From: a virus
Lineage: Duplodnaviria; Caudoviricetes
DNA length: 55,840 nucleotides
Reading direction: 5' to 3' (one strand)
Virus record (IMG/VR): IMGVR_UViG_3300037493_000570
Location: 1-55,840 of that record
Shown here: piece by piece, positions 19,080 through 51,423 of the stretch
Layout: each line of letters begins with the position of its first letter
Position numbering within the stretch: the first letter of the stretch is position 1
Made by a program: the position numbers and the translations under genes
The notes under the pieces: model-generated
What the model was told of the DNA's origin: nothing
The model's database searches: none
The model's input: only the letters and a program-made list of their open reading frames with translations

Positions 19080-19651
19080 AAAATCTATCACACTATGTTA
19101 AAGTTTACAACGACGTTTTCCCTAAAGACTTTTGTAAATCAATGATTGATCGATTTGAAACGCTTGATACTACGACAGCGCCATCTATGCGAGTGTCTGA
19201 TCATTCTTGGGATAAAGATTACAGACGTTTTCTAGAAGTAAACATCAAACAAGAACCTGTATTCGCTGATCTAATAGATCCTTATTATGATCGTATTAAA
19301 GAAGTTTACGCGCATTATAAACAGATGGTAGGCGCTGAATTTTTTCCATCTAAGTTCTCACTTGAAGAAGCTAGAATGAAGAGGTATTTAAACGACGACT
19401 ACGAGCAGTTTGGTTGGCATGTCGACATTGGAGATAAAGCTTCGGCTAGTAGATATTTAGTTATGTTTACTTATCTAAATGACGTAGAGGAAGGTGGCGA
19501 GACTGAGTTTCAGTCTAATTCGAATTTTACTGTTAAACCTATATGTGGTACAATGGTCGTTTTTCCTCCATCGTTTATGTTTCCTCATAGAGGCAGAAAG
19601 CCAATAAGTAATTCTAAATACATTCTTTCAACTTATTTGCACTATGCTTAG
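19076..19651 (+). CDS. 2OG-Fe(II) oxygenase (prolyl-4-hydroxylase-like)
   Basis: WHVD, YLNDVEEGGETEF, FPP..FPHRG; start probably TTG overlapping the gp43 stop. Confidence 0.85.
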   Translation: MKNLSHYVKVYNDVFPKDFCKSMIDRFETLDTTTAPSMRVSDHSWDKDYRRFLEVNIKQEPVFADLIDPYYDRIKEVYAHYKQMVGAEFFPSKFSLEEARMKRYLNDDYEQFGWHVDIGDKASASRYLVMFTYLNDVEEGGETEFQSNSNFTVKPICGTMVVFPPSFMFPHRGRKPISNSKYILSTYLHYA

Positions 19652-21719: not shown

Positions 21720-23028
21720 GTATTTCACAGATCACTTTGAAAAAGTAGTTGCACAAGAGTTAGTAGAGTTCTTTACTCAATATAATAAGCCAGCGTCACT
21801 CGACATCCTTGCGATTCAACTCGGCAATCGCAAGGATCTTCGTGGTGAACAGTTGAGTCAGGTTGAAGCTTATATCAATGAGCTTACATTCAAAACAGAC
21901 AACGATGAATGGTTGTACAAGAATACTGAAGCCTTCTGTAAGAAGCAAGCAGTGTATAACGCAATCATCGATTCGTTTGAAATCATCGAAGGCAAAGACA
22001 AAGTTCGTACGGAGGATGCTATTCCATCCATGTTGTCAGATGCTCTATCAGTATCATTCGACTCATCCGTTGGTCACGATTACCTTGAAGACTTTGAGGA
22101 ACGATACGACTTCTATAATCGCACCGAAGAGAAACTAGAATTCGATCTAGATCTATTCAATAAGATTACGAAGGGTGGTCTATCCAAGAAGACTCTTAAC
22201 GTTATCCTCGCAGGAACTGGCGTTGGAAAATCATTGTTCATGTGTCACGTTGCAGCCGGTGCTTTAATGCAAGGTAAGAACGTTCTATACATCACAATGG
22301 AAATGGCCGAGGAACGTATTGCAGAACGTATCGATGCAAACCTGTTGAACATGACGATGGAAGAACTTGGTAAAGTAACCAAGGACATCTATGAAACACG
22401 TCTCGGCAAGTTGATTAAGAAGACAGCTGGCAAGTTAATCGTTAAGGAATACCCTACAGCGGCTGCGCACTCTGGACACTTTAAAGCATTGCTTGAAGAG
22501 TTAAAGATGAAACGCAACTTCATGCCTGATCTGATTGTTATCGATTATTTGAACATCTGTTCATCTGCTCGTATGAAAGCTGGTGCTGGTGTTAATTCAT
22601 ACACCTTCATTAAGTCTATTGCAGAAGAACTTCGTGGTCTTGCTGTTGAGTATAATGTACCAATCTTGTCTGCAACACAAACGACTCGTAGTGGATTCGG
22701 TAATACTGACGTTGGACTTGAAGATACCTCTGAATCGTTTGGTCTTCCAGCAACTACCGACTTTATGTTTGCATTGATCTCTACTGAAGAGCTTGAGAAT
22801 CTTAATCAGATCATGGTTAAGCAACTTAAGAACCGTTACAATGATGTGAATTACTATAAGCGATTCGTGATCGGTGTTGATAGGTCTCGTATGAAACTGT
22901 ATGATGTTGAGGAATCAGCACAAAAGAATATCTCTGATGCTGGTCAAGATGATGGTCCAGCTTTTGATAAGACTTCATTTGGCAAAAGGATGAAAAGTGC
23001 GGGAGACATGGATAATTTTAAATTTTAA
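21631..23028 (+). CDS. gp41: Replicative helicase gp41 (DnaB-like)
   Basis: [43 protein letters not shown]. Confidence 0.96.
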
Positions 23029-23665
23029 ATTTACAATTGCTAAAGTGCCATCTCTTCATTGCATTTCCCTTACCAATAGCATTACAATGTGGGCAAAAAG
23101 TTATACTTAAAGCCTGTGCCGAATTTGACATTTTTATTTTTGACTCTGTTGTCATTTTTCGGCCATTTAAAGATATTGAAAGTTTCAACTTAGTTTCTTC
23201 AGAAAGCGTTCTGCCTTTTAAAGAATTTGAAATTTGTTGTTTTCTTTCGACTGAAAGAATTCGACCTTTATTTGCGCTTGGTTGACCTTTTAATTTTTCA
23301 GAAATTGTCTTTTTAGTGAGTGTTGTATGCGGTTTAGTATGATGTCCTGGTTTTCCAAGTTTAGAATTAGAAATTTTTTTTCGTGATTCTAAACTTAATC
23401 CCAACATACCATCACCACCATCTGTTTTATTTATGAGTATGCCTGTAAAAAGATCTTTCCGACCCCACCATTTTATAAGTCTTCTTTCAATAGCTAAAGA
23501 ACCTAAATTTGTTAAGTTTGATTCTAATATTACTATTCTAGATTTATCTTTGGGGACTGAAACACCTGCTTGATGTTTACTGAAAGCTCTATTATTTTTA
23601 CCTTTGCCAATATAGTATGGAGTTCCATCTATACGAACATAAGCGTAGACGTAATAAATAAGCAT
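23018..23665 (-). CDS. GIY-YIG-like homing endonuclease with NUMOD3 repeats and C-terminal CPHC motif; start 23665
   Basis: [38 protein letters not shown]; SD AAGGAG. Confidence 0.85.
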
Positions 23666-23720
23666 GCTGGCACTCCTTAATAGTGTTAGAGCCCTTAGGT
23701 GTTCCACCACCGTGAAGGGC
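23666..23720 (-). promoter_or_regulatory. Structured 5' leader, copy 2
   Basis: Minus strand GCCCUU-CAC-GGUG-GUGGAA-CACC-U-AAGGGC-UCUAACACU-AUUAAGG-AGUGCCAGC-AUG. Confidence 0.7.
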
Positions 23721-23739
23721 ACTTTTTGATTGTATTATA

Positions 23740-25206: not shown

Positions 25207-25419
25207 ATGAATGAACATGACTATAATAACCTACAATTTTTACTAACCTCAAGCGAAGAAGTTATCGCTGATTGGTTTCTAAAAACCAGTGCTGATGATA
25301 TTGAATACGCTATGCAAATCATGGCAGCTGCAAGTAAAGAAATGAGTTTCATCACAGGCGAAATTAGTGACGATGATTGCACTGAAGCAAATGAAGTTCT
25401 GCAAAAGTTCATGCTATGA
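25207..25419 (+). CDS. Hypothetical protein
   Basis: SD AGGA; coupled to the next gene. Confidence 0.7.
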   Translation: MNEHDYNNLQFLLTSSEEVIADWFLKTSADDIEYAMQIMAAASKEMSFITGEISDDDCTEANEVLQKFML

Positions 25420-25850
25420 CTAATCAAGAAACGCTTGGAACTATTGGTGAGATTTATTACCAAGCTATCTTTGGTGGATTGCTTTCAGATTACAAATATG
25501 ATGGTGATAAAGACCTCGTACAAGCAGATGGACTTCAAGTAGAAATAAAAACACAAAGCCGCTTACGCGGTTCTAATGCGTTCACCGTCAATAAAGCAAA
25601 CGTAAATAACTTAAACAAGTGCTTGTATGTTGATAGATTAATTTTTATAGAATATAGTCTTAGTGATATAATAATTATATATGAATGTACTAATCGTAGA
25701 AGCGTATTTGGTACTTTAACAAATGATGGTCGTAATATGGCATGTTGGCCTATTGACCAAATGCAAATTCTTAAAAAAGTAAAACACCCAAAGCTCGCAG
25801 AAATTATGCGCAACTTCTCTAACTCTGAAACTCTAGGACATTTTGAATGA
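25416..25850 (+). CDS. Putative PD-(D/E)xK nuclease-fold protein
   Basis: GTIGE...DKDL...VEIKTQ; AT-rich codons. Confidence 0.5.
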   Translation: MTNQETLGTIGEIYYQAIFGGLLSDYKYDGDKDLVQADGLQVEIKTQSRLRGSNAFTVNKANVNNLNKCLYVDRLIFIEYSLSDIIIIYECTNRRSVFGTLTNDGRNMACWPIDQMQILKKVKHPKLAEIMRNFSNSETLGHFE

Positions 25851-26305
25851 CTGATAAACAATTTACTCGCTACTCTGCAAACGTACTTCTTGAAGCAGCA
25901 GCTATTCAAGAAAAGAAAGGCCAGGATTATCAGAATCCTTTGAGTCGCGTTCGCCAAGTAGATCACTACCCTCGTGGTGTTCATAGCATTCTCGACACAG
26001 TGAATGGCAAAGTTCTTCGTATGGTTTCGGTTCTTGAAACTATGGAAGCTGGCGGCAAAGTAAACTTTGAATCCGTTGAAGATTCAGCGCTTGATGCAAT
26101 CAACTATTTGTCATTTATCGTAGCATATATGCGTGGTGAAGTTGATGGACAGGATGGCACTAAAGACATCTTCAATCGCCGCATTAGTAAAGCAACGCAT
26201 CCAACAACTGCATTGACCCCAGAAAAGTTCAGACCACAAACTTCTGGTACAATTACTGTGAATAACGCCATGAGTTCAGGTTGGCCGGTGAAAGGTGCAG
26301 AATGA
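25847..26305 (+). CDS. Nucleotide-modification-associated all-alpha pyrophosphatase-like protein
   Basis: KKGQDY...K..R...ESVEDSALDAINY. Confidence 0.65.
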   Translation: MTDKQFTRYSANVLLEAAAIQEKKGQDYQNPLSRVRQVDHYPRGVHSILDTVNGKVLRMVSVLETMEAGGKVNFESVEDSALDAINYLSFIVAYMRGEVDGQDGTKDIFNRRISKATHPTTALTPEKFRPQTSGTITVNNAMSSGWPVKGAE

Positions 26306-27027
26306 CAGTTCATAATATTCGTCACTTCTTTGCTCAACTATATCAATCAAAGAAATTTGTAACTGATAAGTCAGGCGTAAAGACTATTGAAATTGTAAAT
26401 GCTAATTTTGTTGCAGCTTCGCCTTCTATCTTTGGTGCCGTCAACAACGAATATGTGAGTCGTGAAATTCGTTGGTATGAAGGCCAATCATTGAATGTCA
26501 ATGATATTCCAGGTGGCACTCCCGCTATCTGGAAACAAGTTGCAGACAAAGATGGTTTCATTAATAGCAACTATGGTTGGTGTGTTTTCTCTGCTGATAA
26601 CAATCATCAGTTTGCAAATGCTGTAGCTGAACTAGAAGAGCGTCCCGATTCTCGTCGTGCTATCATGATCTATACTCGTCCTGAGATGTGGGGTGATCAT
26701 AATAAGAATGGTCGTTCCGACTTCATGTGCACTAACACAGTCCAATACTTGATTCGCGATAATCGTGTTTCTGCTATCGTCAATATGCGTAGCAATGATG
26801 CATGGGCTGGATACCGAAATGACTATGCTTGGCAGTTCTATATGCTATCATTGGTTACAAACAAGTTAAACACTCGTGGTAACGCATACCGTATGGGTGA
26901 TATCCATTGGAATGCAGGATCACTCCACATCTATGAACGTCAGTTCTATCTGATCGATCACTTTATTAAAACCGGTGAAACCTCAATCACCAAAGAAGAG
27001 TATGACACAAAGTACAATTTGGCGTGA
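26302..27027 (+). CDS. gp42: dCMP hydroxymethylase (thymidylate synthase fold)
   Basis: INSNYGW, SDFMCTNTVQYLIRD, NMRSNDAWAGYRNDYAWQ (Asp at the TS Asn site), GSLHIYER. Confidence 0.9.
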   Translation: MTVHNIRHFFAQLYQSKKFVTDKSGVKTIEIVNANFVAASPSIFGAVNNEYVSREIRWYEGQSLNVNDIPGGTPAIWKQVADKDGFINSNYGWCVFSADNNHQFANAVAELEERPDSRRAIMIYTRPEMWGDHNKNGRSDFMCTNTVQYLIRDNRVSAIVNMRSNDAWAGYRNDYAWQFYMLSLVTNKLNTRGNAYRMGDIHWNAGSLHIYERQFYLIDHFIKTGETSITKEEYDTKYNLA

Positions 27028-27454
27028 TCGTTATTTAGATCTAGCAAAGCAGGTTTCTACTTGGAGTAAAGATCCAAGTAGAAAAATCGGTGCTGTTGCT
27101 GTAGGATCTAAAGGTCAGATTCTATCACAGGGATTCAATGGATTCCCTCGTGGTATCCTTGATAGTGCTGATCGTTATAATGATCGTCCCACGAAGTATA
27201 AGCTTGTAGTTCATGCTGAAATGAATGTGATCTACAATGCAACATTCAATGGAGTGTCTTTAGATGGTGCATCCTTATACGTCTATGGACTTCCCGTTTG
27301 TTCTGAATGCGCTAAGGGTATCATCCAAGTTGGAATTAAAAATGTTGTCATCTATACCGATGATGTAGTTCCAGCAGTATGGACAGATGCTTATGAATTG
27401 ACTTATGATATGTTTAAAGAAAGTGATGTGCAATGCGAGTGGATCCAATCTTAA
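27002..27454 (+). CDS. cd: dCMP deaminase
   Basis: WSKDPS, GFNGFPRG, HAEMN, PVCSECAK. Confidence 0.9.
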   Translation: MTQSTIWRDRYLDLAKQVSTWSKDPSRKIGAVAVGSKGQILSQGFNGFPRGILDSADRYNDRPTKYKLVVHAEMNVIYNATFNGVSLDGASLYVYGLPVCSECAKGIIQVGIKNVVIYTDDVVPAVWTDAYELTYDMFKESDVQCEWIQS

Positions 27455-27804
27455 TCGTTGGAATTTGTCCTTCTAATAAACCCCTATTGAAAAATAGTAA
27501 GAACGCTTCGCTTGATCGTCTTAGTACTTGGATGGATCATTTAAATGTCCAGCATTTTTCTTTCATAAATACGTTTGACACACCCGGTAATCCGCGTATG
27601 TCCAATGTAGATTTTGAAGCATTGGAAAAAGCGTGTAAAGGTTATGTCAACGTATTAGCACTTGGCAATTTTGTTGCTGATGTACTATGTAAGATTAACG
27701 TAAGGCATTATGTAATGCCTCATCCATCACCACTCAATAGAAATCTGAATCATAAGTGGTGGGTTGAATTGATGTTAGAAGATTGTAAGGATTATCTCAA
27801 ATGA
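27433..27804 (+). CDS. Small uracil-DNA-glycosylase-superfamily-like protein
   Basis: LIVGICPS, LALGN, PHPSPLNR. Confidence 0.6.
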   Translation: MRVDPILIVGICPSNKPLLKNSKNASLDRLSTWMDHLNVQHFSFINTFDTPGNPRMSNVDFEALEKACKGYVNVLALGNFVADVLCKINVRHYVMPHPSPLNRNLNHKWWVELMLEDCKDYLK

Positions 27805-29024
27805 AAATCGCATTTATTATGGGCCGTGGCGTTGAAGGTTGCGGCGTAACTAAGTTTACTCTAGAACAGAACGATTGGTTCTTGCGTCAAGGTATTGAAT
27901 CAACGATATATTCTCCTAAGGATAAATCGTGGACTCGCAAGAATTCTCATGACTGTTCGACGATACAGACTTTGAAGTTTGCTAAAGATGAAGATGCAAA
28001 CCTTGTGATTGCAGGATGCAATGCAGCCGATGCTGTTATCATTACATCGCTTCCTTCTGATTCCCATCCAGCCGCATGCATTGCTAACTTCAAACGTATC
28101 CTTGCATCTATCACTAAGCCAATCGTTTTGATTCAGCTAGATCATAAGTCTGCATCCATTAAACGCAATGCGGCATTGGACGAATCTATTAATGCATCGG
28201 CTGTTATGTTTTCGTTGTCGCGTAAAAACGACTTTGCTGAATATGTTAATGCTATGACTGGAGCATCTGGTCTTGCATCTTTCTTTGACGATGACTCAGT
28301 TCAAAAAGAAATCTTTGCATATCAGGTTGGTTATACATTTGAACCAGCCAAGCAAAAATACTGGAAAGACATTAAAGAACAAGATCCATTACATCACAAA
28401 TGGATTGGCCGCACCACTTCGTGGAAAGGCTATCAACAAATGTTCCACTTCCACAATAACTTCTTGCGTCCCAATGGATACATGACAACGTTTGAAGGTA
28501 TTGAAAAGTCACCAGCATATCTTGGGTTCAAAGAACTATCTGAATTTCATCCTATGGTTGGCGAAGATCCACGAACGTCGGATCTGTCAAAAGCATATGG
28601 CGATCTAGCTTATGTCTTTGGCCCATACAACAATGATGAGATGCTGGAACGAATTTCTCGATGTGGATTCGGCTATCAGCTGTCATTGCTTGGTGAGAAG
28701 TACATTGAGAATGCATTGGAATATACTCATTGCGAAATCGTAGCAACTGGAACTACTCCTGTATTTCGTGCAGGATGGGGACGACGTGCTAAACACCGTA
28801 CTCTTGATACTCCATTGATCGACTGTAAGAACAATGGAACTGTTTGGCTAGATGATGATAACATGCAACCAGCATTGGATCTTATCAATAAGCTAAGTAA
28901 GGATGATGTTATGCGCGATGAATATCGTCACATGGCATATGAGTTCTATAAAGAGCATCAGGATTCTGAACATATCTTTAGTGATATGTGGAACAAGATG
29001 AAACCTTACATTGTAAAAGCATGA
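27801..29024 (+). CDS. agt: DNA alpha-glucosyltransferase homolog (hmC glycosyltransferase)
   Basis: MGRGVEGCGVTKFTLEQ, WIGRTTSWKG, EGIEKSPA, GFGYQLS, LEYTHCE as in T4 AGT. Confidence 0.88.
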   Translation: MKIAFIMGRGVEGCGVTKFTLEQNDWFLRQGIESTIYSPKDKSWTRKNSHDCSTIQTLKFAKDEDANLVIAGCNAADAVIITSLPSDSHPAACIANFKRILASITKPIVLIQLDHKSASIKRNAALDESINASAVMFSLSRKNDFAEYVNAMTGASGLASFFDDDSVQKEIFAYQVGYTFEPAKQKYWKDIKEQDPLHHKWIGRTTSWKGYQQMFHFHNNFLRPNGYMTTFEGIEKSPAYLGFKELSEFHPMVGEDPRTSDLSKAYGDLAYVFGPYNNDEMLERISRCGFGYQLSLLGEKYIENALEYTHCEIVATGTTPVFRAGWGRRAKHRTLDTPLIDCKNNGTVWLDDDNMQPALDLINKLSKDDVMRDEYRHMAYEFYKEHQDSEHIFSDMWNKMKPYIVKA

Positions 29025-29863
29025 AAATCTTAGTAACAGGAGGAGCAGGATTCGTTGGATCCTCGCTCTGTGAAAGACTTCAACAGTCTGGGCATTCCGT
29101 ATCATCGGTTGATAACTATTTTACCGGTAGCATGTATAATCATGTTGACGATGTGACGTATTACGATTGCGATACCAAGAATATTCTAACACTTGGTCTT
29201 GAGAATGATTTTCAACTAGTGTATCACCTTGGCGAATATTCTAGAGTAGAACAATCTTACGATGATTTGAATACGGTGTTGGATTACAATCTATATTCCA
29301 TAGCACCGGTTGTAGAGTTTGCTAAGAATTGCAATGCAAAGTTAATTTATTCTGGCTCAAGCACTAAGTTCTCTGCAGCTGGTGGATCGTTATCTCCCTA
29401 TGCATGGACCAAAACAGTCAACGCTGATTACGTTAAGAACTATTCTGAATGGTATGGTTTAGACTATGCTATCACTTACTTCTACAATGTCTATGGAAAC
29501 CGCGAAATTTGTGACGGTAAATATAGTACTGTAGTTGCAAAGTTTCTTAAGATGAAACGCGAAGGTGCGACAACTTTACCTGTAACTTCTCCTGGCACGC
29601 AGCAAAGAAACTTCACACACGTTGATGACATTGTTGATGCGCTGATTCTGATTGGTGAACATGGTAAAGGCGATGGATATGGTATTGGATCCGACGATGC
29701 GTATTCTATTGTGGAACTTGCTGAAATGATTGGCTTAAACGTTGACATGAGAGCTGCAGTAAAAGGTAATAGACTTAGTGCACCAGTGAAGTCTGAAAAG
29801 ACTATCGCACTAGGATGGAACACAAAACGAAACTTGAAAGAATACATTAAATCATGTCTATAA
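29021..29863 (+). CDS. NAD-dependent nucleotide-sugar epimerase/dehydratase (extended SDR)
   Basis: VTGGAGFVG, DNYFTG, SPYAWTK (YxxxK), NVYG, RNFTHVDD. Confidence 0.9.
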   Translation: MKILVTGGAGFVGSSLCERLQQSGHSVSSVDNYFTGSMYNHVDDVTYYDCDTKNILTLGLENDFQLVYHLGEYSRVEQSYDDLNTVLDYNLYSIAPVVEFAKNCNAKLIYSGSSTKFSAAGGSLSPYAWTKTVNADYVKNYSEWYGLDYAITYFYNVYGNREICDGKYSTVVAKFLKMKREGATTLPVTSPGTQQRNFTHVDDIVDALILIGEHGKGDGYGIGSDDAYSIVELAEMIGLNVDMRAAVKGNRLSAPVKSEKTIALGWNTKRNLKEYIKSCL

Positions 29864-30711
29864 ACATTGGTATTATTGGTCACGGCTTTGTCGGCAAGGC
29901 TGTTGAATTTGGATTTGATACTCCTGAGGTTGATCAGTATCTGGTAGATCCTAATTACGGAACTACTGTCGCTTCAATGTTTGATAATTTTGATCCGCAT
30001 ATCGTTTTCATTGCAGTACCAACTCCAATGAGTGATGATGGTACGATCAATTCATCTATCATTGAGCAAGTATTCTTAGATCTTAGCAAAGCAGACTCAA
30101 AACCAATTGCAGTAATTAAGTCTACCATTACTCCTGAAGTTATCTCAAAGATCAAAGCCGTGTATCCACGTGTTATCTACAATCCTGAGTTTCTTACAGA
30201 GCGTAATGCAAATCATGATTTTGTAAATGCACCTATGCTTATCATTGGTGGTGAAAATGAAAGTGACATGCGATTTATCAAATCGGCGTATGACACGTAT
30301 TCAAAGTGTGTGCCATGTGAAACATTCTTTGTTGATCTAGAAGCAGCATCGATGATTAAGTACACGCTGAATTGCTTTATGGCTACCAAGGTTTTATTCT
30401 TTAATCAGATCAATTCAATCTTTAAAGCAAGCGGAACTGAAACAGATTGGAATGATTTTGTTTCAATCATTAAAGCAGATCCTCGAGTTGGCGATAGTCA
30501 TATGGCAGTCCCAGGTCCTGATGGCCGTTATGGTTACGGTGGTGCATGTTTCCCTAAAGATACAACTGCATTGGTTAAATATTCTAAAAACATCGGTGTT
30601 CCCTTCACCGCATTGGAAGAAGTTGTAAAGGCTAATCAAAAGATTAGAAGCCAGTACACTGATTTAGATGCTCGTGAAAAAGAACAAAACGTGAGCTTTA
30701 AAGCGTTATGA
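29854..30711 (+). CDS. UDP-glucose/GDP-mannose 6-dehydrogenase family (short, no C-terminal domain)
   Basis: GHGFVG, VPTP, KST, NPEFL, GYGGACFPKD. Confidence 0.9.
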   Translation: MSINIGIIGHGFVGKAVEFGFDTPEVDQYLVDPNYGTTVASMFDNFDPHIVFIAVPTPMSDDGTINSSIIEQVFLDLSKADSKPIAVIKSTITPEVISKIKAVYPRVIYNPEFLTERNANHDFVNAPMLIIGGENESDMRFIKSAYDTYSKCVPCETFFVDLEAASMIKYTLNCFMATKVLFFNQINSIFKASGTETDWNDFVSIIKADPRVGDSHMAVPGPDGRYGYGGACFPKDTTALVKYSKNIGVPFTALEEVVKANQKIRSQYTDLDAREKEQNVSFKAL

Positions 30712-31889
30712 AACATGCATCTATAGTTCCACTAATTGGTGGAGAAACTCTTGGTCAAATGGCAGCCTTCGGCACTAAGCCAGATTACTTACTTTCATAC
30801 TCTCCGTTTAGTAATAATGATTCGCACTTGGTTAATCACCTTAAAGACGTCCCTTACATCTTACTTGATCAGGGCGGTCGTCATCCTCACTATGTTGATG
30901 TTGTCAACGCTGTCTGTCCTTGTGCTGGGTTATCTTCTTTATCACCTTCAGCTAATTCCGATGCAGCAGTTAATGATTGGTTAACAACTACTGCTAAGTA
31001 CGTGTTGGAAGAAATGAAGCCACAGGTTCTATGGGGAGAGAATGCACCACGATTCGCTGGCTCAATGGGTAAACCAATCGTAGATAAGCTTCATAAACTT
31101 GCTACTGATAATGGTTATACGATGTCAGTGTATAGGACTAAGTCCCTATTGCATGGACTAAGTCAAGTAAGAGAACGATCGTTCTATTTCTTTTGGCAGG
31201 GCGATACCATTCCCGTCTTCAATTATTTTGATCGTCCAAATAAAAAGATTGAAGATCTGCTCACTGGTGTACCTAAAGATGCAAGCCAGCAAGAAGTAAC
31301 TAACAAGAAGATTCCTTCAAAGGACGATCCTTACTATCGTTACGTGCTAGAAGAGCTTGAAGGCGGCATCACTCACGCCGAGTTCGCGGCCAAGTTAACA
31401 TCGTCATATGATGTGATGCACTACATCGAATCAAAGACGAACTATCTTGAGGTTAAGAAGTGGGCTGAGAAGCAAGGTCTTACTAAGATGGCAGGCAAGT
31501 GTCAATTTATGCATGATAAGCTCGCAGCTGGTGGTAACATTATGAGACGTGCTTCTTATATTCCAAAGAATTATAGCGGTGCATTCGTTGGCCATCTTCC
31601 AACAAGTATGACTCATCCAGTAGAAGATCGTTATCTAACGTATCGTGAATGCATGACCATGATGGGTCTACCCAATGATTTTGAGTTGCTAAGTCCAGCA
31701 AAGAATCTGAATCATGTATGCCAGAACGTACCTGTTGGAACTGCTACAGATATGGCTATGGAAGTTAAAGCATCGTTGGAGGGTAAGCGCGATAGAGTAA
31801 ATGCTTCGCTGCTCTATCAGTTTAACAACAATAAAACATATGAGATTCGAGACACTGAACCCATACAGAGTTTAGAAAGTTTCTTCTAA
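30708..31889 (+). CDS. C5-cytosine methyltransferase-like protein with atypical motif I
   Basis: CPCAGLS (IV), GENAP (VI), QVRER (VIII), RYLTYREC (IX), QNVP (X); motif I reads IVPLIGG. Confidence 0.75.
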   Translation: MKHASIVPLIGGETLGQMAAFGTKPDYLLSYSPFSNNDSHLVNHLKDVPYILLDQGGRHPHYVDVVNAVCPCAGLSSLSPSANSDAAVNDWLTTTAKYVLEEMKPQVLWGENAPRFAGSMGKPIVDKLHKLATDNGYTMSVYRTKSLLHGLSQVRERSFYFFWQGDTIPVFNYFDRPNKKIEDLLTGVPKDASQQEVTNKKIPSKDDPYYRYVLEELEGGITHAEFAAKLTSSYDVMHYIESKTNYLEVKKWAEKQGLTKMAGKCQFMHDKLAAGGNIMRRASYIPKNYSGAFVGHLPTSMTHPVEDRYLTYRECMTMMGLPNDFELLSPAKNLNHVCQNVPVGTATDMAMEVKASLEGKRDRVNASLLYQFNNNKTYEIRDTEPIQSLESFF

Positions 31890-31891: not shown

Positions 31892-31911
31892 AAATGCCCT
31901 TCGGGGCATTT
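31892..31911 (+). terminator. Terminator-like hairpin closing the modification operon
   Basis: AAATGCCC-TTCG-GGGCATTT. Confidence 0.8.
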
Positions 31912-31959: not shown

Positions 31960-32775
31960 ATGGCAGCTTCAGAAGGCGTAGACTTAGAATTCGCTATAGT
32001 AGATCATATAAGAATGACTAATGGCACTTTAATAAGTCCAAATAGAAAATATTCTACTAAGATTGAACAACAGGCTAAGAAGTGTGCAGAACATGTATTC
32101 GATTTTGCTGGAAATAAAAAAGTAGAAGCATGGCACTCGGACGATAATACAAATCCATTTCATGTTTCAATTTCTGCAAAACCAGAACCTAAAACAGACG
32201 TAGTGTTTAAAATTGGCAATACGATATACACTGCTTCAGTTAAAATGGCCGGTCCAGTTCAATTAGCATCAGGCCAAGGAGTTAGTACTGCGGAATTGTT
32301 TGAGGCCGCAGCACAGCATCTAAACAACAAAGCAAAATCCAAAGTTTTAGAATCTATTATACATGAATTGCGAACAATGCCAACTAGATTGCTATCGGAA
32401 GGCAATAAACCTAGAATCATGGGTGAAGGTAAGCAGAAAATAATAGATGAATTTATAAAAAATGGTAAAGTTATTACTGATAAAAGTTATGATGTATGGC
32501 TACAGAATAATAAGCCAATGTTAATGACAAAGTTACTTGATTATGTTGAAAGCGATCATGATTTTAAAGTTGCTTTACTGTACGAGTCCATGACTGGCGA
32601 AAAGACATTGTCAAAATATAAAGGTGCTGTAGCTAATAGTATCATTAGTCCTAAAGGATTCTATGAAATAGACGGTTCATACGTCAATAGTATTTTTTCA
32701 CGAGTGAAATTCGACATTAGAGGTAAGTCTAGAAGCGGCATTACCGGTGTGGCTTTTAGAATTGACTTAAATTAA
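31960..32775 (+). CDS. Hypothetical, restriction-endonuclease-fold candidate
   Basis: E...PKTDVV...ASVK pattern; AATAAATA late-like box upstream. Confidence 0.6.
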   Translation: MAASEGVDLEFAIVDHIRMTNGTLISPNRKYSTKIEQQAKKCAEHVFDFAGNKKVEAWHSDDNTNPFHVSISAKPEPKTDVVFKIGNTIYTASVKMAGPVQLASGQGVSTAELFEAAAQHLNNKAKSKVLESIIHELRTMPTRLLSEGNKPRIMGEGKQKIIDEFIKNGKVITDKSYDVWLQNNKPMLMTKLLDYVESDHDFKVALLYESMTGEKTLSKYKGAVANSIISPKGFYEIDGSYVNSIFSRVKFDIRGKSRSGITGVAFRIDLN

Positions 32776-32834: not shown

Positions 32835-34064
32835 ATGCTAAACTTAAAAGACTACCTCAAAGAAGAAAAAAACGTTCACATGGAACACATTGAAGACCTC
32901 ATCTTCAATGAAGGTGTTATCGGCACTCGTAAAGCCATCAACTTTCTGCAAGACTTACGCGACATGCTCGCTGGTCACAGTAAGACCAAGATCACCGCAA
33001 CGGTGAAATGGGATGGGGCTCCAGCTATCTTCGCTGGAGTAGATCCTCGCGATGGAAAATTCTTTGTAGCAAAGAAGGGTATCTTCAATAAGAATCCTAA
33101 GGTCTATAAAACCAATGCTGACATTGACGCTGAATTGAGTGGCGATCTTGCTACAAAATTTAAGACTGCTCTCAAAGAATTCTCAAAGCTTGGTATCAAA
33201 TCCGGTGTATATCAGGGTGACCTTATGTTCACCGATGATAAGAAGACTGAGTCTATCGATGGCGAGAAGTTCATTACGTTTCATCCAAACACGATCATGT
33301 ATGCAGTGCCATATAGTTCAGAACTCGGTAAGAAGATTCGTTCTGCTAAGATCGGAGTGATCTGGCATACTACCTACGTCGGCGATTCTTTCGAATCAAT
33401 GTCTGCTTCATTTGGTAAGACTATCGTTGACAAACTTAATGACGTACCATCTATCTGGATGGATGATGCAAACTATAAAGACTATTCTGGTACAGCAACA
33501 TTCACTGCTGCAGAAACTAAAGAAGTCACTGCAGTACTATCTCGTGCAGGAACTCTATTTGGATCTATTAGTGCTCCAACGCTGAATGCAATCAGCGCTG
33601 ATGAAGACTTGCTAATGGCTGTCAAGACTTTCACTAATTCAAAGATTCGTAAGGGTGAATACATCACCAACACTAAAGCTCACGTGCAAGAACTCTATCA
33701 TTGGATCCATGATAGATACGAAAAAGAAATCGAAAAGAAAAAGACTCCTGCTGGAAAGAAAACTCAGGAAGATATGCGTAAGAAGATCCTAAGCTTCTTT
33801 GCTCATCACGATCAAAATCAAATCGTTGCAATCTTTGATCTTGCAAACTTGCTAGTAGAAGCGAAAGCGCTGATCGTTGCTAAGATGAATCAGGCTGGAC
33901 ATGTTAGCACATTCCTTAAGACTTCTGATGGTTTCAAAACAACTGGAGTAGAAGGTTTCGTTGCTATTGATCACCTTACTGGTGGAGCTGTAAAGATCGT
34001 AGATCGTATGGAATTTAGCAAGGCTAATTTTAGCCCACTTATAATCAAAGGATGGACAAAATGA
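32835..34064 (+). CDS. Conserved T4-like protein with KWDG ligase/nucleotidyltransferase-like motif
   Basis: HMEHIED, TVKWDGAPA, QGDLMF, EGFV, VKIVDRMEFS. Confidence 0.75.
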   Translation: MLNLKDYLKEEKNVHMEHIEDLIFNEGVIGTRKAINFLQDLRDMLAGHSKTKITATVKWDGAPAIFAGVDPRDGKFFVAKKGIFNKNPKVYKTNADIDAELSGDLATKFKTALKEFSKLGIKSGVYQGDLMFTDDKKTESIDGEKFITFHPNTIMYAVPYSSELGKKIRSAKIGVIWHTTYVGDSFESMSASFGKTIVDKLNDVPSIWMDDANYKDYSGTATFTAAETKEVTAVLSRAGTLFGSISAPTLNAISADEDLLMAVKTFTNSKIRKGEYITNTKAHVQELYHWIHDRYEKEIEKKKTPAGKKTQEDMRKKILSFFAHHDQNQIVAIFDLANLLVEAKALIVAKMNQAGHVSTFLKTSDGFKTTGVEGFVAIDHLTGGAVKIVDRMEFSKANFSPLIIKGWTK

Positions 34065-34600
34065 TAGATTTTAAAACTTACTTAGAAGAAGTTAAACGAG
34101 GCCTATGGGCAAACATTCACGCTAAAAGAAAGCGAATTAAAGCCGGTTCAGGCGAGAAGATGCGTAAGCCAGGAAGTAAGGGAGCTCCATCTGAAGCTGA
34201 CCTAAAGTCCGCAGCAGAATCTGTTGAGAACCAGTTTGACATTATTGAAGAGCTAGTGATGGATTTAGCTGAAATGCATAATGTCGATCCAGAAGTTATC
34301 TGGGAAGATTTTGAATCTGTTGACGACACCGAACTTTATGAATATGCTATTGATGCTAAAGGGCATAAGAGTTCTACGGGTGGACTGACACAAAAAGGTG
34401 TTGACGCTTACAACGCAAAGACTGGTGGAAATCTTAAGACAGCAGTAACAACTCCACCTTCTAAATTAAAGCCTGGTTCAAAAGCTGCTAATCGTCGTAA
34501 GTCTTTCTGTGCTAGAATGGGCGGAGTTGAAGGTCCAATGAAAGATGACAAAGGTCGACCAACTCGTAAAGCACTAGCTCTTAGAAAATGGAATTGCTAA
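34061..34600 (+). CDS. Putative internal head protein with two basic modules
   Basis: MIDFKTYLEE start; GLWANIHAKRKR and GGLTQKG...RRKSFCARM...LRKWNC modules. Confidence 0.7.
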   Translation: MIDFKTYLEEVKRGLWANIHAKRKRIKAGSGEKMRKPGSKGAPSEADLKSAAESVENQFDIIEELVMDLAEMHNVDPEVIWEDFESVDDTELYEYAIDAKGHKSSTGGLTQKGVDAYNAKTGGNLKTAVTTPPSKLKPGSKAANRRKSFCARMGGVEGPMKDDKGRPTRKALALRKWNC

Positions 34601-34746
34601 TGATTACGTTTAAAGATTGGTTAAAGGAGGAGAATACTCAAGGTGATGAAGGAACTGATAAGCTCACTAAGCATCGTAAGAAGCTTACACCCAATGAATT
34701 GCCAGTTACTCCCGAACCACTTAAGAATTTTGAAACGTATAAATAA
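34600..34746 (+). CDS. Small protein (48 aa, not in ORF track)
   Basis: MITFKDWLKEENTQGDEGTDKLTKHRKKLTPNE...; coupled to the upstream stop. Confidence 0.7.
   Translation: MITFKDWLKEENTQGDEGTDKLTKHRKKLTPNELPVTPEPLKNFETYK
34738..34745 (+). promoter_or_regulatory. Late promoter TATAAATA
   Basis: Exact consensus 30 nt before the ATG at 34776. Confidence 0.7.
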
Positions 34747-34775
34747 ACTATAACAATTTGTATTGATGGAATAAA

Positions 34776-36839
34776 ATGAAAAAACTAAGACAGGTCTTAA
34801 AGGAACTGCCATCTAGAAAAGTAGTGTTCGCCTTTGGTCGCTTTCAGCCACCAACTACAGGCCATGAACTGCTTGTCAACATAGTTAAAAAGGTCGCCTC
34901 TGCACAGAAGGCCGATCATGTCATCTTCGCTTCACGAACACATGACAAAAAATCCAACCCACTTCCAGTAGATCGTAAGGTATATTACCTTAAGAGAATG
35001 TTTCCAAAGACTAATTTCGTCGCAGCTAATGACGAAGTTCGTACTTTCATTGAAGCAGCTAAGATGCTGTCTGGTAAGTATAAGAATCTAGTGATGATCG
35101 CAGGATCAGATAGAGTTCCAGAATACAAGAAGATCCTTGAAAAATACAATGGCGATGTATTCCATTTTGATACTGTTGAAGTAGTATCGGCTGGTGAACG
35201 TGATCCAGACGCTGATAGCGCTTCTGGCATGTCCGGCACTAAGATGAGAGCTGCAGCGGCTGATGGCGACTATAAGAAGTTTAAGACAGGTCTTCCGAAA
35301 GCACTCACAGATCTTGACGGCAGACGTCTCATGAATGAGATTCGTACCGGCATGGGAATGGAAGTCGTTAAGGAACAAGTTAAGTTTGAAACAAATGATA
35401 CCCGTGAAAAATACTATTCTGGTCAGATCTTTAACATTGGCGAGAAAGTAACTGATGGTCAAAACATCTTTGAAATTATTGATCGTGGTTCTAATTATAT
35501 CACAGTCGTTAATGAATCCGGAGCTACAAGTAAGAAGTGGCTCAACTCAGTACGACCAATCGTAGTTGAAGACGTTAAACCTGGTTACGCGCCAAAGCAG
35601 ATCAGCTACAAGGGTTACACTACTAAGAACTTCGATAGATCTGAAGATGCGGCAAAAGCTTTTCAAGATACTATCGATAGAGAAGGTGACCCAGTCGCGA
35701 TCCTAAATGCTATCAAAGCAACTGACACGTACATGGGTCTTAATGACAAACACCTTACAGGTGAAAAGTTCACAGATCAAGAAAAAGAAACATGGATAGC
35801 CGCACACGAAAAAGCTAGAGAGTCTTTAAATAGAGTCGGCGAATTTGCTCATCATCAAGACTATTGGCATACTCATCAGCATGAGTTAGAGGGCGTACTC
35901 ATTCCTTATGATGAGACTGGTAAAGAAGAAATGCGCGAACAAAAAGAAAGACTAGAAGAAATGAAATTCTCATCAATAGACAGAATCAAAGTAGCACGCA
36001 TTATTGCCGGTTCACTTGGAGTACCAGATGTAGAAGAAAAATCTGGTCCAGCTGAAATGGTAAACCAAGGTCTACGTTTCATTAAGAACAAACGCATGAC
36101 TCCAGAAGCTTGGAACGTCATTAAGAATATGCTTCAAATGGCGACAGATGCTGGCATTAAGTTTGATCAGAACATCGTTAAGAATAAAGTTGAAGAATCG
36201 GTAGACAAAAAGAACGGTGACTCTGATAAAGAAGTAGAGCACGATGAAAAACCAGACCACGGCAAAGTTGGTAGAAGTCTTGGCGGATCGAACGACTCAC
36301 ACCGTAGAATGAAAGTTAAGTACGCTTTAGGCGAAGAGTCTGAGCGTGAAGAACTTGAAGATGAAGGTCTATCAGATGAAGAGATCGACGACATGATCGG
36401 CAAGCTTAGTGATGATGATTATCTAGAAGCATATGACGATGAAGAGCTATCAGTTATCGACGACGAAACTGGTGAGCATCTCCACGATTTAAAAGAAGAA
36501 GCTCTAATGGAAGTTCTTTCAAGAGCTGAAAGAGTTAGAGCTAAGATTAGGTTTGCAAAATCAGAAGCAAAACGCGAACGTAAGACTCGCATTGCTCTAA
36601 AGACTAGATCTACTTCAAAGACTATTAATACTCGCGCCCGCCGCATGGCAGTTAATATGATGAAGATGAGGATCGCTAAGAAGCCTCTCAATACACTCTC
36701 AGTTGGTGAGAAAGAAAGAATCGAGAGAATCATAGCTAAGAGAAAAGTAGTCATTGGTCGTATCGCAATGAAGATGGCGCCGAGAGTGCGCAAGATTGAA
36801 AACGATAGACTAGTACATAGAACATACACTAAGGGTTAA
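34776..36839 (+). CDS. Cytidyltransferase-like (HIGH) protein with long acidic/basic C-terminal modules
   Basis: FGRFQPPTTGH, AGSDR, SAGERDPD, SGTKMR. Confidence 0.85.
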   Translation: MKKLRQVLKELPSRKVVFAFGRFQPPTTGHELLVNIVKKVASAQKADHVIFASRTHDKKSNPLPVDRKVYYLKRMFPKTNFVAANDEVRTFIEAAKMLSGKYKNLVMIAGSDRVPEYKKILEKYNGDVFHFDTVEVVSAGERDPDADSASGMSGTKMRAAAADGDYKKFKTGLPKALTDLDGRRLMNEIRTGMGMEVVKEQVKFETNDTREKYYSGQIFNIGEKVTDGQNIFEIIDRGSNYITVVNESGATSKKWLNSVRPIVVEDVKPGYAPKQISYKGYTTKNFDRSEDAAKAFQDTIDREGDPVAILNAIKATDTYMGLNDKHLTGEKFTDQEKETWIAAHEKARESLNRVGEFAHHQDYWHTHQHELEGVLIPYDETGKEEMREQKERLEEMKFSSIDRIKVARIIAGSLGVPDVEEKSGPAEMVNQGLRFIKNKRMTPEAWNVIKNMLQMATDAGIKFDQNIVKNKVEESVDKKNGDSDKEVEHDEKPDHGKVGRSLGGSNDSHRRMKVKYALGEESEREELEDEGLSDEEIDDMIGKLSDDDYLEAYDDEELSVIDDETGEHLHDLKEEALMEVLSRAERVRAKIRFAKSEAKRERKTRIALKTRSTSKTINTRARRMAVNMMKMRIAKKPLNTLSVGEKERIERIIAKRKVVIGRIAMKMAPRVRKIENDRLVHRTYTKG

Positions 36840-50617: not shown

Positions 50618-50624
50618 GGTTAAT

Positions 50625-51422: not shown

Positions 51423-51423
51423 A

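What the first reader, a model, noticed from the sequence alone, without database searches (positions are those of the whole stretch)
26302..31889. Cytosine-hypermodification operon predicting 5-hmC with a non-glucose sugar
Seen: seven genes with overlapping starts and stops, ending at a UUCG hairpin. They encode dCMP hydroxymethylase, dCMP deaminase, a UDG-fold protein, an AGT homolog, an SDR epimerase/dehydratase, a UDP-glucose-dehydrogenase-family enzyme and a C5-MTase-like protein. Known: T4 gp42 makes hm-dCMP (Asp replaces the TS Asn, as in RNDYAW here), and AGT glucosylates it with host UDP-glucose, so T4 needs no sugar genes. Inference: this phage makes its own donor, e.g. UDP-Glc to UDP-glucuronate, then galacturonate, xylose or arabinose (DNYFTG recalls UDP-GlcA decarboxylases). 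That would give uronosyl- or pentosyl-hmC, probably against restriction or CRISPR. I do not know of this combination being characterised.
Basis: partly seen in the sequence, partly recalled or inferred. Interest (0 to 1): 0.9.

Follow-up and report, generated by a model that had tools for sequence, protein, structure and literature searches.

The report
Phage hmC operon with own sugar-donor genes
An uncultured aquatic T4-like phage carries, in one tightly packed operon, the genes to make hydroxymethylcytosine DNA and to decorate it with a sugar that it probably makes itself from UDP-glucuronate, a variant of a known anti-restriction strategy.

Summary
The seven overlapping genes and the UUCG hairpin are real. 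The thymidylate-synthase homolog is a T4-type dCMP hydroxymethylase: 59% identical to T4 gp42, with Asp, not Asn, at the position reported to mark 5-hydroxy-dCMP synthases. The AGT homolog is full length. The 'UGDH' is a two-domain form of about 285 aa. It keeps the catalytic Cys motif but lacks the UDP-binding domain, and it belongs to a large family found mostly on viral contigs. The SDR fits neither the UDP-glucuronate 4-epimerase nor the decarboxylase signature.

An AGT-anchored scan kept 80 viral loci. AGT abuts the C5-methyltransferase-like gene directly in 70. The junction holds the SDR alone in 5, the UGDH alone in 1, and both only in the window's twin contig. More distant relatives carry AGT, a clear UDP-glucuronate 4-epimerase, the mini-UGDH and the methyltransferase. 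The window's operon is a mosaic, with AGT and SDR sharing one source.

Best reading (0.45): a hexuronic acid on 5-hmC. Rivals are a pentose, or sugar genes serving another glycan. Hexuronate-5hmC and phage-made sugar donors are already published, so this is a new variant of a known kind. Interest 0.6.

The parts
25847..26305 (+). MazG-like protein, a candidate dCTP/dUTP pyrophosphohydrolase, coupled by ATGA to the hydroxymethylase gene
   Evidence: PHROGs phrog_1485 and phrog_18404 'hydrolase', E 2.5e-11 and 6.3e-11. No Pfam, NCBIfam or PDB match. Conserved upstream of the thymidylate-synthase homolog in relatives. The function is inferred.
26302..27027 (+). dCMP hydroxymethylase (T4 gp42 type)
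   Evidence: PDB 1b49 (T4 deoxycytidylate hydroxymethylase), E 4.8e-92. 59% identical to T4 gp42. SDFMCTN and MRSNDAWAGYRNDYAW motifs: catalytic Cys; Asp at the ThyA L143, D169 and N177 positions, whereas RB69 gp48 has Asn at the D169 position (rule taken from PMC13326640, sections 24 and 28).
26975..27454 (+). dCMP deaminase. The start is uncertain: GTG at 26975 or ATG at 27002.
   Evidence: PF00383, E 9.4e-18. phrog_174, E 1.3e-42. HAE and PVCSEC motifs in the translation.
27433..27804 (+). Small (123 aa) UDG-superfamily-like protein of unknown activity
   Evidence: PF03167, E 5e-4, below its cut-off. The family alignment keeps GxxPS and PHPSPxNR motifs. AF2 pLDDT 85. The Foldseek top hits include UDG 5gn2, MUG 1mtl (TMq 0.66) and vaccinia D4, but none at E <= 0.001.
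27801..29024 (+). AGT-family (T4 alpha-glucosyltransferase-like) DNA glycosyltransferase
   Evidence: PF11440, E 9.9e-78, full length. phrog_2888, E 2.3e-95. 40% identical to T4 a-gt, with 31 invariant columns across 13 sequences.
29021..29863 (+). Extended SDR ('W-type', 280 aa) of unresolved specificity, probably acting on UDP-glucuronate
   Evidence: PF01370, E 3.8e-36. No NCBIfam model over its cut-off. Best PDB matches are a UDP-glucose 4-epimerase (7ys8, 3.7e-19) and UXS1 (1.6e-17). It follows a full-length UGDH in Vibrio phage Kuja and in an Oceanospirillaceae MAG.
29854..30711 (+). Two-domain UDP-glucose-dehydrogenase-like enzyme (285 aa), with no UDP-binding domain
   Evidence: PF03721 and PF00984 only. 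It aligns to residues ~79-306 of 450-aa UGDHs. There is no PF03720 anywhere in the window, with the control ringing in 14 of 14 genomes. Foldseek finds only UGDH/GMD chains, TMq 0.51-0.67 and TMt 0.35-0.50. GGACFPKD, NPEFLxE and KYxxN are invariant in the family.
30708..31889 (+). C5-cytosine-methyltransferase-like protein, the conserved partner of AGT
   Evidence: PF00145, E 2.3e-15 and 57.3 bits. Invariant CPCAGLS, WGENAP, QxRxR and CQxVP motifs in 12 homologs. It lies directly downstream of AGT in 70 of 80 AGT loci.
31892..31911 (+). UUCG-loop hairpin, terminator-like
   Evidence: An 8-bp stem with 4 GC pairs and a TTCG loop, then a T-rich tail. It is identical in the twin contig, while the next gene differs.

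Best explanation
The phage replaces dC by 5-hydroxymethyl-dC before replication. The steps are a MazG-like dCTPase candidate, a T4-type dCMP hydroxymethylase and a dCMP deaminase. After replication, the AGT-family transferase puts a sugar on the hydroxymethyl group. The donor is made by the phage from host UDP-glucose. The two-domain UGDH oxidises C6 to give UDP-glucuronate, and the SDR then remodels it, most likely by 4-epimerisation to UDP-galacturonate. The DNA would then carry hexuronosyl-5hmC, a negatively charged glycan that should block restriction enzymes and CRISPR nucleases and escape defences that recognise glucosyl-hmC.

Shown: the gene identities, the 5hm-type (not 5ho-type) active site, the absence of the UDP-binding domain, the gene order and its variants in relatives.

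Inferred: every substrate and product, the donor accepted by the AGT homolog, and the role in defence evasion.
For: 1. hmC route. 59% identity to T4 gp42. PDB 1b49, E 4.8e-92. Asp at the positions equivalent to ThyA L143, D169 and N177.

2. Position of the sugar genes. They lie between AGT and the methyltransferase-like gene, with overlapping stops and starts.

3. Same order in distant relatives. Eight more divergent loci (L011, L013, L016, L025, L035, L036, L059, L061; AGT 34-46% identical in the five of them compared) have AGT-SDR-UGDH-MT5. L006, cut after the UGDH, has AGT-SDR-UGDH. The L035 SDR, taken as representative, matches solved UDP-glucuronate 4-epimerases (6zl6/6zld/6zll, E 3.6e-48; 5u4q, E 4e-79; PDB identities checked in PMC11519531). 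It keeps FTVYGPWGRPDMA. That enzyme needs UDP-glucuronate.

4. Catalytic residues. Those of the mini-UGDH are invariant across 18 family members.

5. SDR neighbours of the mini-UGDH. An SDR is the immediate neighbour in 45 of 80 loci.

6. The window-type SDR follows full-length UGDHs in Kuja and in a bacterial MAG.

7. Mosaic structure. The window's TS, dCD and MT5 are closest to a lineage without sugar genes (80, 89 and 85%). AGT and SDR are both closest to another lineage (71 and 69%). The UGDH is closest to a third (64%, where AGT is only 37%). AGT and SDR therefore appear to travel together.

8. Precedent. Phage GT plus epimerase pairs gave hexuronic-acid-5hmC (433 amu) in E. coli (bioRxiv 10.1101/2023.12.21.572611, passages).
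Against: - No chemistry was done; all substrates are inferred.
- The UGDH lacks the domain that binds UDP in every solved relative and scores below NCBIfam cut-offs.
- The window's own SDR is not the 4-epimerase type. It has no FTVYGPxxRPDMA, and no model names it.
- 70 of the 80 kept AGT loci have no sugar gene at the junction.
- 48 of 80 mini-UGDH loci show no TS, dCD, MT5, AGT or TAGT in the stretch fetched.
- One 177.5-kb contig (86% complete) with SDR plus UGDH has neither a thymidylate-synthase homolog nor Tet_JBP.
- SDR-UGDH often sits in the same primase-to-UvsX slot without any hmC genes, so part of the linkage may reflect a shared insertion site.
- No AGT residue could be tied to donor choice.
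- The UGDH-anchored sample is biased towards loci that have the gene.
Confidence: 0.45

Rival explanations
1. Pentosyl-5hmC. The SDR oxidises C4 of UDP-glucuronate, the keto-acid loses CO2, and the product is UDP-xylose or a UDP-4-keto-pentose. The AGT homolog transfers that pentose.
For: The SDR pairs with UGDHs but lacks the 4-epimerase's carboxylate-holding motif. Passages of PMC12338863 say that disrupting this hold turns the 4-epimerase into a primitive UDP-xylose synthase. Human UXS1 is among the best PDB matches (E 1.6e-17). A pentose on cytosine is reported for Shewanella phage Thanatos (PMC12838424, abstract).
Against: The Glu that human UXS1 has two residues after the catalytic Thr aligns with Thr here, and there is no acidic residue in YSGSSTKF. 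That ArnA and other decarboxylases share this Glu is recalled, not tested. The alignment lies next to an indel, so this is not decisive. Five relatives carry this SDR with AGT but no UGDH, which fits an epimerase of a common host sugar better.
Confidence: 0.2
2. The DNA carries plain alpha-glucosyl-5hmC as in T4. The SDR and mini-UGDH are auxiliary genes for another glycan (host envelope, capsule or a phage protein) that happen to sit in a variable slot of the replication module.
For: 70 of 80 AGT loci manage without them. 48 of 80 mini-UGDH loci show no hmC genes nearby. One contig, 86% complete, has the cassette but no TS homolog or Tet_JBP. A pelagimyophage survey files UDP-glucose 6-dehydrogenase under LPS-related auxiliary genes (PMC7029224, passage). 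SDR-UGDH lies between primase and UvsX in phage C48C1 without AGT.
Against: The genes are inserted inside the hmC module, between AGT and its constant partner, with overlapping codons. Sugar genes differ at that same junction in at least three places on the AGT tree. AGT and SDR share one source in the mosaic. C48C1 has a Tet_JBP protein next to a UDP-galactopyranose mutase, so it too may glycosylate DNA. Loci with the unrelated DNA glycosyltransferase TAGT also carry SDR-UGDH beside the methyltransferase gene.
Confidence: 0.2
3. Oxidation on the DNA. The AGT homolog adds glucose from host UDP-glucose, and the two-domain dehydrogenase then oxidises the DNA-bound glucose to glucuronate. It would need no UDP-binding domain.
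For: The UDP-binding domain is missing while the whole catalytic set is kept. L007/L141 has AGT-UGDH-MT5 with no SDR.
Against: The commonest partner is a full-length UDP-glucuronate 4-epimerase, which needs the free nucleotide sugar. The family also occurs where no DNA glycosyltransferase was found. A conserved 25-residue tail with two invariant Arg could stand in for the lost domain.
Confidence: 0.05

Closest known systems
T4 hmC pathway: gp42 dCMP hydroxymethylase, cd dCMP deaminase, gp56 dCTPase, alpha-glucosyltransferase
   Same: The hydroxymethylase is 59% identical and has the same active-site residues. The AGT family member is full length and 40% identical. A dCMP deaminase is present.
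   Different: T4 uses host UDP-glucose and has no sugar genes. Here an SDR and a UGDH-like gene follow AGT. A C5-methyltransferase-like gene is the constant partner of AGT, and T4 has none (recalled). The genes form one overlapping operon, whereas in T4 genes 42 and a-gt lie about 11 kb apart.
Metagenomic phage glycosyltransferase plus sugar-epimerase pairs that hypermodify 5hmC ('subclass II', bioRxiv 10.1101/2023.12.21.572611)
   Same: A DNA glycosyltransferase depends on a neighbouring epimerase. Hexuronic-acid-5hmC was observed (passages).
   Different: There, 5hmC comes from a C5-methyltransferase plus TET after replication, and the donor precursor came from E. coli. The text I searched has no 'AGT' and no sugar dehydrogenase. 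Here the route is the pre-replicative thymidylate-synthase type, with an AGT-family enzyme and the phage's own UGDH-like gene. Supplements were closed, so I could not check whether any of their contigs matches.
Phage-encoded donor pathways for glycosylated 5-hydroxycytosine: RB69 and DLP3 UDP-arabinose, RL38J1 UDP-galactofuranose (PMC13326640); Thanatos UDP-xylose pyrophosphorylase (PMC12838424)
   Same: The phage makes its own nucleotide sugar, and the genes are clustered with the thymidylate-synthase homolog and the glycosyltransferase.
   Different: Those thymidylate-synthase homologs carry Asn at ThyA position 169 and make 5-hydroxy-dCMP. The window has Asp there. The sugar enzymes also differ: isomerase, kinase, pyrophosphorylase or mutase there, against dehydrogenase plus SDR here.
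UDP-glucose 6-dehydrogenase (three-domain; e.g. PDB 3gg2, 1dli)
   Same: Rossmann and central domains. Cys, Lys, Asn, Asp and Glu catalytic residues. The fold.
   Different: No C-terminal UDP-binding domain and a shortened N-terminal domain, about 285 aa against 377-464 aa. It forms a large family of its own: the best 120 of 3813 hits are 263-309 aa, and all 80 viral loci have frames of 265-336 codons.
UDP-glucuronate 4-epimerase (B. cereus UGAepi, PDB 6ZLD/6ZLL)
   Same: The SDR beside the mini-UGDH in 29 of 80 loci is of this type by best local match. Its representative, from L035, scores E 3.6e-48 against the solved enzyme and has the motif.
   Different: The window's own SDR is a different lineage (E about 1e-7 to 1e-12 against that type), and it lacks the motif.

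Membership tests
T4-type dCMP hydroxymethylase (5hm, not 5ho) | Thymidylate-synthase fold with the catalytic Cys | tested here: met
   PF00303, 50.3 bits against a 24.3-bit cut-off. SDFMCTN aligns with T4 gp42.
T4-type dCMP hydroxymethylase (5hm, not 5ho) | Asp in place of ThyA Asn177 (dCMP specificity), and an acidic residue in place of Leu143 | tested here: met
   RNDYAW and SDFMC are identical to T4 gp42. The rule comes from PMC13326640, section 24.
T4-type dCMP hydroxymethylase (5hm, not 5ho) | Asp kept at ThyA position 169 (Asn marks 5-hydroxy-dCMP synthases) | tested here: met
   The window and T4 have MRSND; RB69 gp48 has MRSQN. The rule comes from PMC13326640, section 28.
T4-type dCMP hydroxymethylase (5hm, not 5ho) | Makes 5-hm-dCMP from dCMP and methylene-tetrahydrofolate | not testable with these tools
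   Needs an enzyme assay or LC-MS.
AGT (T4 alpha-glucosyltransferase family, PF11440) | Full-length match over the family cut-off | tested here: met
   262.1 bits against a 25-bit cut-off, profile 1-353 of 355.
AGT (T4 alpha-glucosyltransferase family, PF11440) | Uses UDP-glucose as donor on 5hmC in DNA | not testable with these tools
   A comparison of AGTs with and without sugar genes gave 12 differing columns, none interpretable.
UDP-glucose 6-dehydrogenase | NAD-binding and central domains with the GGxCxxKD catalytic Cys | tested here: met
   PF03721 and PF00984. GGACFPKD is invariant in 18 sequences.
UDP-glucose 6-dehydrogenase | C-terminal UDP-binding domain (PF03720) | tested here: not met
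   The protein ends at the position of residue ~306 of 450-aa enzymes. There is no PF03720 in the window, and the control rings in 14 of 14 genomes. TMt is only 0.35-0.50.
UDP-glucose 6-dehydrogenase | Score over a curated equivalog cut-off | tested here: not met
   TIGR03026, 137.7 bits against 189.8. The UGDH equivalogs score 76-109 bits against 670-757.
UDP-glucuronate 4-epimerase | FTVYGPxxRPDMA region that holds the carboxylate; close match to solved enzymes | tested here: not met
   The window SDR has FYNVYGNREI. The solved UDP-glucuronate 4-epimerase scores only E 7.6e-14, behind 19 other PDB sequences. The feature is met by the relatives' SDR, as represented by the L035 protein.
UDP-glucuronate decarboxylase (UXS/ArnA type) | Glu two residues after the catalytic Ser/Thr | tested here: not met
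   The UXS1 TSE triplet aligns with SST in the window. The alignment is next to an indel.
DNA C5-cytosine methyltransferase | Motifs IV (PC), VI (ENx), VIII (QxRxR) and X | tested here: met
   CPCAGLS, WGENAP, QVRERSF and CQNVPV are invariant in 12 homologs. PF00145, 57.3 bits against a 22-bit cut-off. The motif names are recalled.
DNA C5-cytosine methyltransferase | SAM-binding motif I (FxGxG) | tested here: inconclusive
   The N-terminus reads VPLIGGE. The Pfam match starts only at residue 62. NCBIfam dcm scores 25.4 bits against 100.65.
Uracil-DNA glycosylase superfamily | Family match over the cut-off, or a significant structural match | tested here: inconclusive
   20.6 bits against 24.3. 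Profile search of the PDB: best E 0.011. Foldseek: best E 5.5e-3, with UDG, MUG and D4 among the top hits.

The most novel reading that the evidence does not exclude
The two-domain dehydrogenase has lost its UDP-binding domain because its substrate is not a nucleotide sugar. It would oxidise glucose already attached to 5hmC in DNA. That would be the first enzyme known to tailor a DNA-bound sugar after transfer.
Probability: 0.06. Interest if true: 0.85.

Novelty: new variant of a known kind. Interest (0 to 1): 0.6.

Why it matters
If the prediction holds, a widespread group of uncultured aquatic T4-like phages carries acidic or otherwise non-glucose sugars on hmC. Such DNA would resist restriction enzymes and Cas nucleases. 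It would also be hard to sequence or clone and easy to miss in viromes.

The junction between AGT and the methyltransferase-like gene offers a natural series in related phages: no sugar gene, SDR alone, UGDH alone, or both. This series could show how donor supply and transferase specificity evolve together.

The two-domain UGDH family poses a clean enzymology question: how is a nucleotide sugar bound without the nucleotide-binding domain? The family gave 3813 database hits at E <= 1e-10 (full-length enzymes not excluded) and at least 589 viral stretches.

Tried and rejected
1. Near-identical DNA in 50,697 phage records: none. No cultured close relative exists. The best DNA polymerase match is 49%.

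2. NCBIfam naming of the SDR, UGDH, AGT, MT5, UDG-like and MazG-like proteins: nothing over a cut-off.

3. Residues that separate AGTs linked to sugar genes from T4-type AGTs: 12 columns. They are confounded with ancestry and cannot be mapped to the donor pocket. Dropped.

4. UDG-like protein: the profile search of the PDB gave nothing significant. The fold search is only suggestive.

5. MazG-like proteins against the PDB: best E 0.24 and 0.013. The dCTPase role stays an inference.

6. ESM Atlas for the SDR: only generic 'epimerase/dehydratase' and 'heptose epimerase' cluster names, mostly viral. No help with specificity.

7. Cluster look-up of seven mini-UGDH relatives: only generic names and Tara gene tags.

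8. C48C1 first looked like a counter-example (cassette, but no TS, AGT or TAGT). It then turned out to have a Tet_JBP protein beside a UDP-galactopyranose mutase. I count it for neither side.

9. I considered a split gene supplying the missing UGDH domain. No PF03720 is present in the window.

10. I considered a 5-hydroxycytosine pathway (RB69 type). It is rejected on the Asp/Asn test.

11. Not used: complex prediction, the look-up of sequencing runs, read laying and the search of protein representatives, because no claim here rests on binding, expression or deeper homology. Supplementary files of the papers were closed, so I could not compare the window with the contigs of the 2023 preprint.

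12. Literature searches behind 'not found in print'. None returned this gene combination or a two-domain phage UGDH. The library lacks most subscription journals.

Full report
WHAT THE WINDOW IS. The window is a whole IMG/VR virus record of 55,840 bases that CheckV rates 34% complete. It holds the replication module of a T4-like phage: family-B DNA polymerase, UvsX, DnaB-like helicase, clamp loader, SbcCD-like nuclease and both ribonucleotide reductase subunits. No phage record has near-identical DNA over the operon. The best polymerase matches are Phage C48C1 (49%), marine cyanophages and Methylophilales phage Melnitz (about 46%). It is therefore an uncultured aquatic lineage. A second IMG/VR contig, L004/L091, carries an almost identical operon.

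THE OBSERVATION. All seven ORFs exist at the stated coordinates, and every junction overlaps. The UUCG hairpin at 31892-31911 follows the last stop codon. The overlapping run actually starts further upstream. It includes two orphan ORFs and a MazG-like protein whose stop overlaps the hydroxymethylase start.

HYDROXYMETHYL OR HYDROXY. A 2026 paper (PMC13326640; abstract and sections 24, 25, 27 and 28 read) shows that some phage thymidylate-synthase homologs make 5-hydroxy-dCMP, which is then arabinosylated. It reports that these enzymes carry Asn where E. coli ThyA has Asp169. An acidic residue at Leu143 and Asp at Asn177 mark dCMP use and a non-methyl product. In my alignment the window protein and T4 gp42 both read SDFMCTN and MRSND...RNDYAWQ, whereas RB69 gp48 reads MRSQN. 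The window protein is 59% identical to T4 gp42 and hits its crystal structure at E 4.8e-92. Six homologs from related loci also keep Asp. The pathway therefore starts from 5-hydroxymethyl-dCMP.

THE SUGAR GENES. The UGDH-like protein is 285 aa. It aligns to residues ~79-306 of 450-aa enzymes, and no PF03720 domain exists anywhere in the window. Its AF2 model (pLDDT 85.4) finds only UGDH and GDP-mannose dehydrogenase chains of 377-464 aa, covering about half of each. This is not a truncation accident. A database search returned 3813 proteins at E <= 1e-10, and the best 120 are all 263-309 aa with the same two domains. At least 589 viral stretches encode a relative, and all 80 loci fetched have frames of 265-336 codons. 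The catalytic residues are invariant (NPEFLxE, KYxxN, GGACFPKD), and so is a 25-residue tail with two Arg. The model is poorly defined at the Cys loop and the tail.

The window's SDR (280 aa) reaches no curated cut-off. Its best solved relatives are a UDP-glucose 4-epimerase, Pal and human UXS1, at E 1e-17 to 1e-19. It has the YxxxK motif and a Ser/Thr triplet, but no Glu at the position of UXS1's TSE Glu and none of the acidic pair that I recall for 4,6-dehydratases. It also lacks the FTVYGPxxRPDMA region of UDP-glucuronate 4-epimerases.

RELATIVES, ANCHORED ON THE UGDH (biased towards having it). I took the 80 best viral loci and screened them with the window's proteins. An SDR is the immediate neighbour of the mini-UGDH in 45 loci: 40 upstream and 5 downstream.
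- By best local match, 29 are of one type (24 upstream, 5 downstream). Its representative, from L035, matches solved UDP-glucuronate 4-epimerases: 6zl6/6zld/6zll at E 3.6e-48, 5u4q at E 4e-79, and MoeE5. The PDB codes are confirmed as that enzyme in PMC11519531.
- Of the rest, 8 are a short third type, 4 are the window type and 4 are a fourth type. The script pooled the last two groups as 'SDR'.

AGT homologs occur in 10 loci. Eight of these show the order AGT-SDR-UGDH-MT5. L006 shows AGT-SDR-UGDH before the contig ends, and L007 has AGT-UGDH-MT5 with no SDR. Eight further loci match the TAGT glycosyltransferase of L023 (PF20691). In seven of them the order is TS-dCD-TAGT-MT5-SDR-UGDH.

Against this, 48 of the 80 loci show none of TS, dCD, MT5, AGT or TAGT in the stretch fetched. 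Many of those contigs are short.

RELATIVES, ANCHORED ON AGT (the fairer test). A scan with an AGT alignment found 305 relatives, and the best 80 (48-100% identical) were kept. Between AGT and the methyltransferase-like gene there is:
- nothing in 70 loci;
- the window-type SDR alone in 5 (L092-L096, AGT 68-69% identical in the scan);
- the UGDH alone in 1 (L141, the same contig as L007);
- both only in L091, the window's twin.
Three loci end at a contig edge.

No mini-UGDH is found elsewhere on five of these contigs. One of them is a 141.9-kb contig with terminal repeats, of the type with no sugar gene.

The conserved core is therefore TS-dCD-(UDG-like)-AGT-MT5, presumably giving glucosyl-hmC. 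Sugar genes are occasional inserts at one junction. On a quick maximum-likelihood tree of 93 AGTs (LG+G4), the window groups with the SDR-only loci (support 100). The UGDH-only locus is nested among loci without sugar genes (99). At least three changes of state are needed. I left out L002, L004 and L091 as copies of the window.

MOSAIC. Pairwise identities show three different sources.
- The window's TS, dCD and MT5 are closest to L097, which has no sugar genes: 80, 89 and 85%, while AGT is 62%.
- Its AGT and SDR are closest to L092: 71 and 69%, while TS is 60% and MT5 is 51%.
- Its UGDH is closest to L006: 64%, while AGT is 37%.
AGT and the SDR thus seem to have arrived together. This is what one expects if the transferase is tuned to the SDR's product. 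The argument rests on identities only; I ran no formal test of incongruence.

WHAT THE WINDOW'S SDR WORKS ON. It directly follows a full-length UGDH in Vibrio phage Kuja (48% identical). It also follows a three-domain UGDH in an Oceanospirillaceae MAG (55%). Both point to UDP-glucuronate. Its presence without a UGDH in L092-L096 points instead to a common host sugar, or to host UDP-glucuronate. Passages of PMC12338863 say that a 4-epimerase which loses its grip on the carboxylate becomes a primitive UDP-xylose synthase. An SDR that oxidises C4 of UDP-glucuronate without that grip could therefore decarboxylate. I cannot decide between a hexuronate and a pentose for this phage. For the relatives with the 4-epimerase, galacturonate is the natural prediction.

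COUNTER-EVIDENCE AND CAVEATS. SDR-UGDH often lies between the primase-like gene and UvsX without any hmC genes. Part of the linkage may therefore come from a shared variable slot, and this weakens the TAGT argument in particular. Phage C48C1 has the cassette but no TS homolog, AGT or TAGT. It does, however, have a Tet_JBP protein followed by an unknown gene and a UDP-galactopyranose mutase. One 177.5-kb contig (86% complete) has the cassette and neither TS nor Tet_JBP.

THE OTHER GENES. The methyltransferase-like protein keeps the C5-attack motifs in all 12 homologs aligned. It is the most constant neighbour of AGT. Its role in a genome where C5 is already substituted is unexplained. No Tet_JBP or TAGT is present in the window. 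The UDG-like protein keeps GxxPS and PHPSPxNR motifs, but its fold assignment is only suggestive.

WHAT IS KNOWN. The T4 paradigm is textbook knowledge. Hexuronic-acid-5hmC made by metagenomic phage GT plus epimerase pairs is described in bioRxiv 10.1101/2023.12.21.572611 (passages and section 9). That text does not mention AGT or a sugar dehydrogenase. Phage-made UDP-arabinose and UDP-galactofuranose for 5-hydroxycytosine are in PMC13326640. A pentose on cytosine with a phage UDP-xylose pyrophosphorylase is in PMC12838424 (abstract and section 9). A pelagimyophage survey lists UDP-glucose 6-dehydrogenase as LPS-related (PMC7029224, passage). Seven literature searches returned no description of this operon type or of a two-domain phage UGDH.

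VERDICT. The finding is a real, coherent operon that has not, as far as I could find, been characterised. It is a new variant of a known strategy, not a new kind. Most probable product: a UDP-glucuronate-derived sugar on 5hmC (hexuronate 0.45, pentose 0.2). Probability that the sugar genes serve something else: 0.2. Interest 0.6.

Noticed in passing
window 31860-31889; alignment A9 and A6: The methyltransferase-like family ends in a conserved ...LE-x-F(F) tail (invariant Leu and Phe). AGTs of several distant relatives (L006, L011, L016, L025, L035, L036, L061) end in a similar tail, mostly GLEEF(F). It resembles the short C-terminal tails by which T4 proteins dock on the sliding clamp (recalled), so both enzymes may ride the replisome.
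   Followed up: no
window 19034-19651: A 2OG-Fe(II) oxygenase (PF13640, E 3.8e-11; phrog_61) lies directly after the DNA polymerase gene. It is not a Tet_JBP match.
   Followed up: partly
window 25207-25850: Two orphan ORFs (70 and 144 aa) belong to the same run of overlapping genes upstream of the MazG-like gene. No Pfam or PHROG family was found.
   Followed up: partly
window 31960-32775 versus L004 about 12160 onward: The gene after the terminator (phrog_22045, unknown) is replaced by unrelated sequence in the otherwise near-identical twin contig. The hairpin and the spacer are conserved.
   Followed up: partly
window 23018-23722 (- strand): A homing-endonuclease-like gene (NUMOD3; phrog_314) lies on the opposite strand between the helicase and the first MazG-like gene.
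   Followed up: no
L257 4584-8031 (Phage C48C1, record 49583-53030): A Tet_JBP dioxygenase (472 aa), an unknown 344-aa protein and a UDP-galactopyranose mutase stand in a row, about 12 kb from that phage's SDR plus mini-UGDH pair. The only methyltransferase I looked at is an N6-adenine type. This looks like another, undescribed DNA glycosylation route.
   Followed up: partly
L003, L171-L173 (Vibrio phage Kuja): This Ackermannviridae phage has a full-length UGDH plus the window-type SDR. About 60 kb away it has two TAGT-domain proteins (open frames of 463 and 449 aa) and a thymidylate-synthase homolog.
   Followed up: partly
L019 5412-6113; L040 2084-3622; L050 3768-5060: Other neighbours of the mini-UGDH in viral contigs: a phosphomannomutase-like HAD protein, a B12-binding radical-SAM protein and a myo-inositol-1-phosphate-synthase-like protein. 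The family sits in varied sugar contexts.
   Followed up: no
window 32835-36839: A DUF6267 protein (E 1.6e-109) is followed, after a small DUF6321 gene, by a 687-aa protein that PHROGs calls a cytidyltransferase (phrog_3041, E 3.1e-73) but Pfam does not recognise.
   Followed up: no
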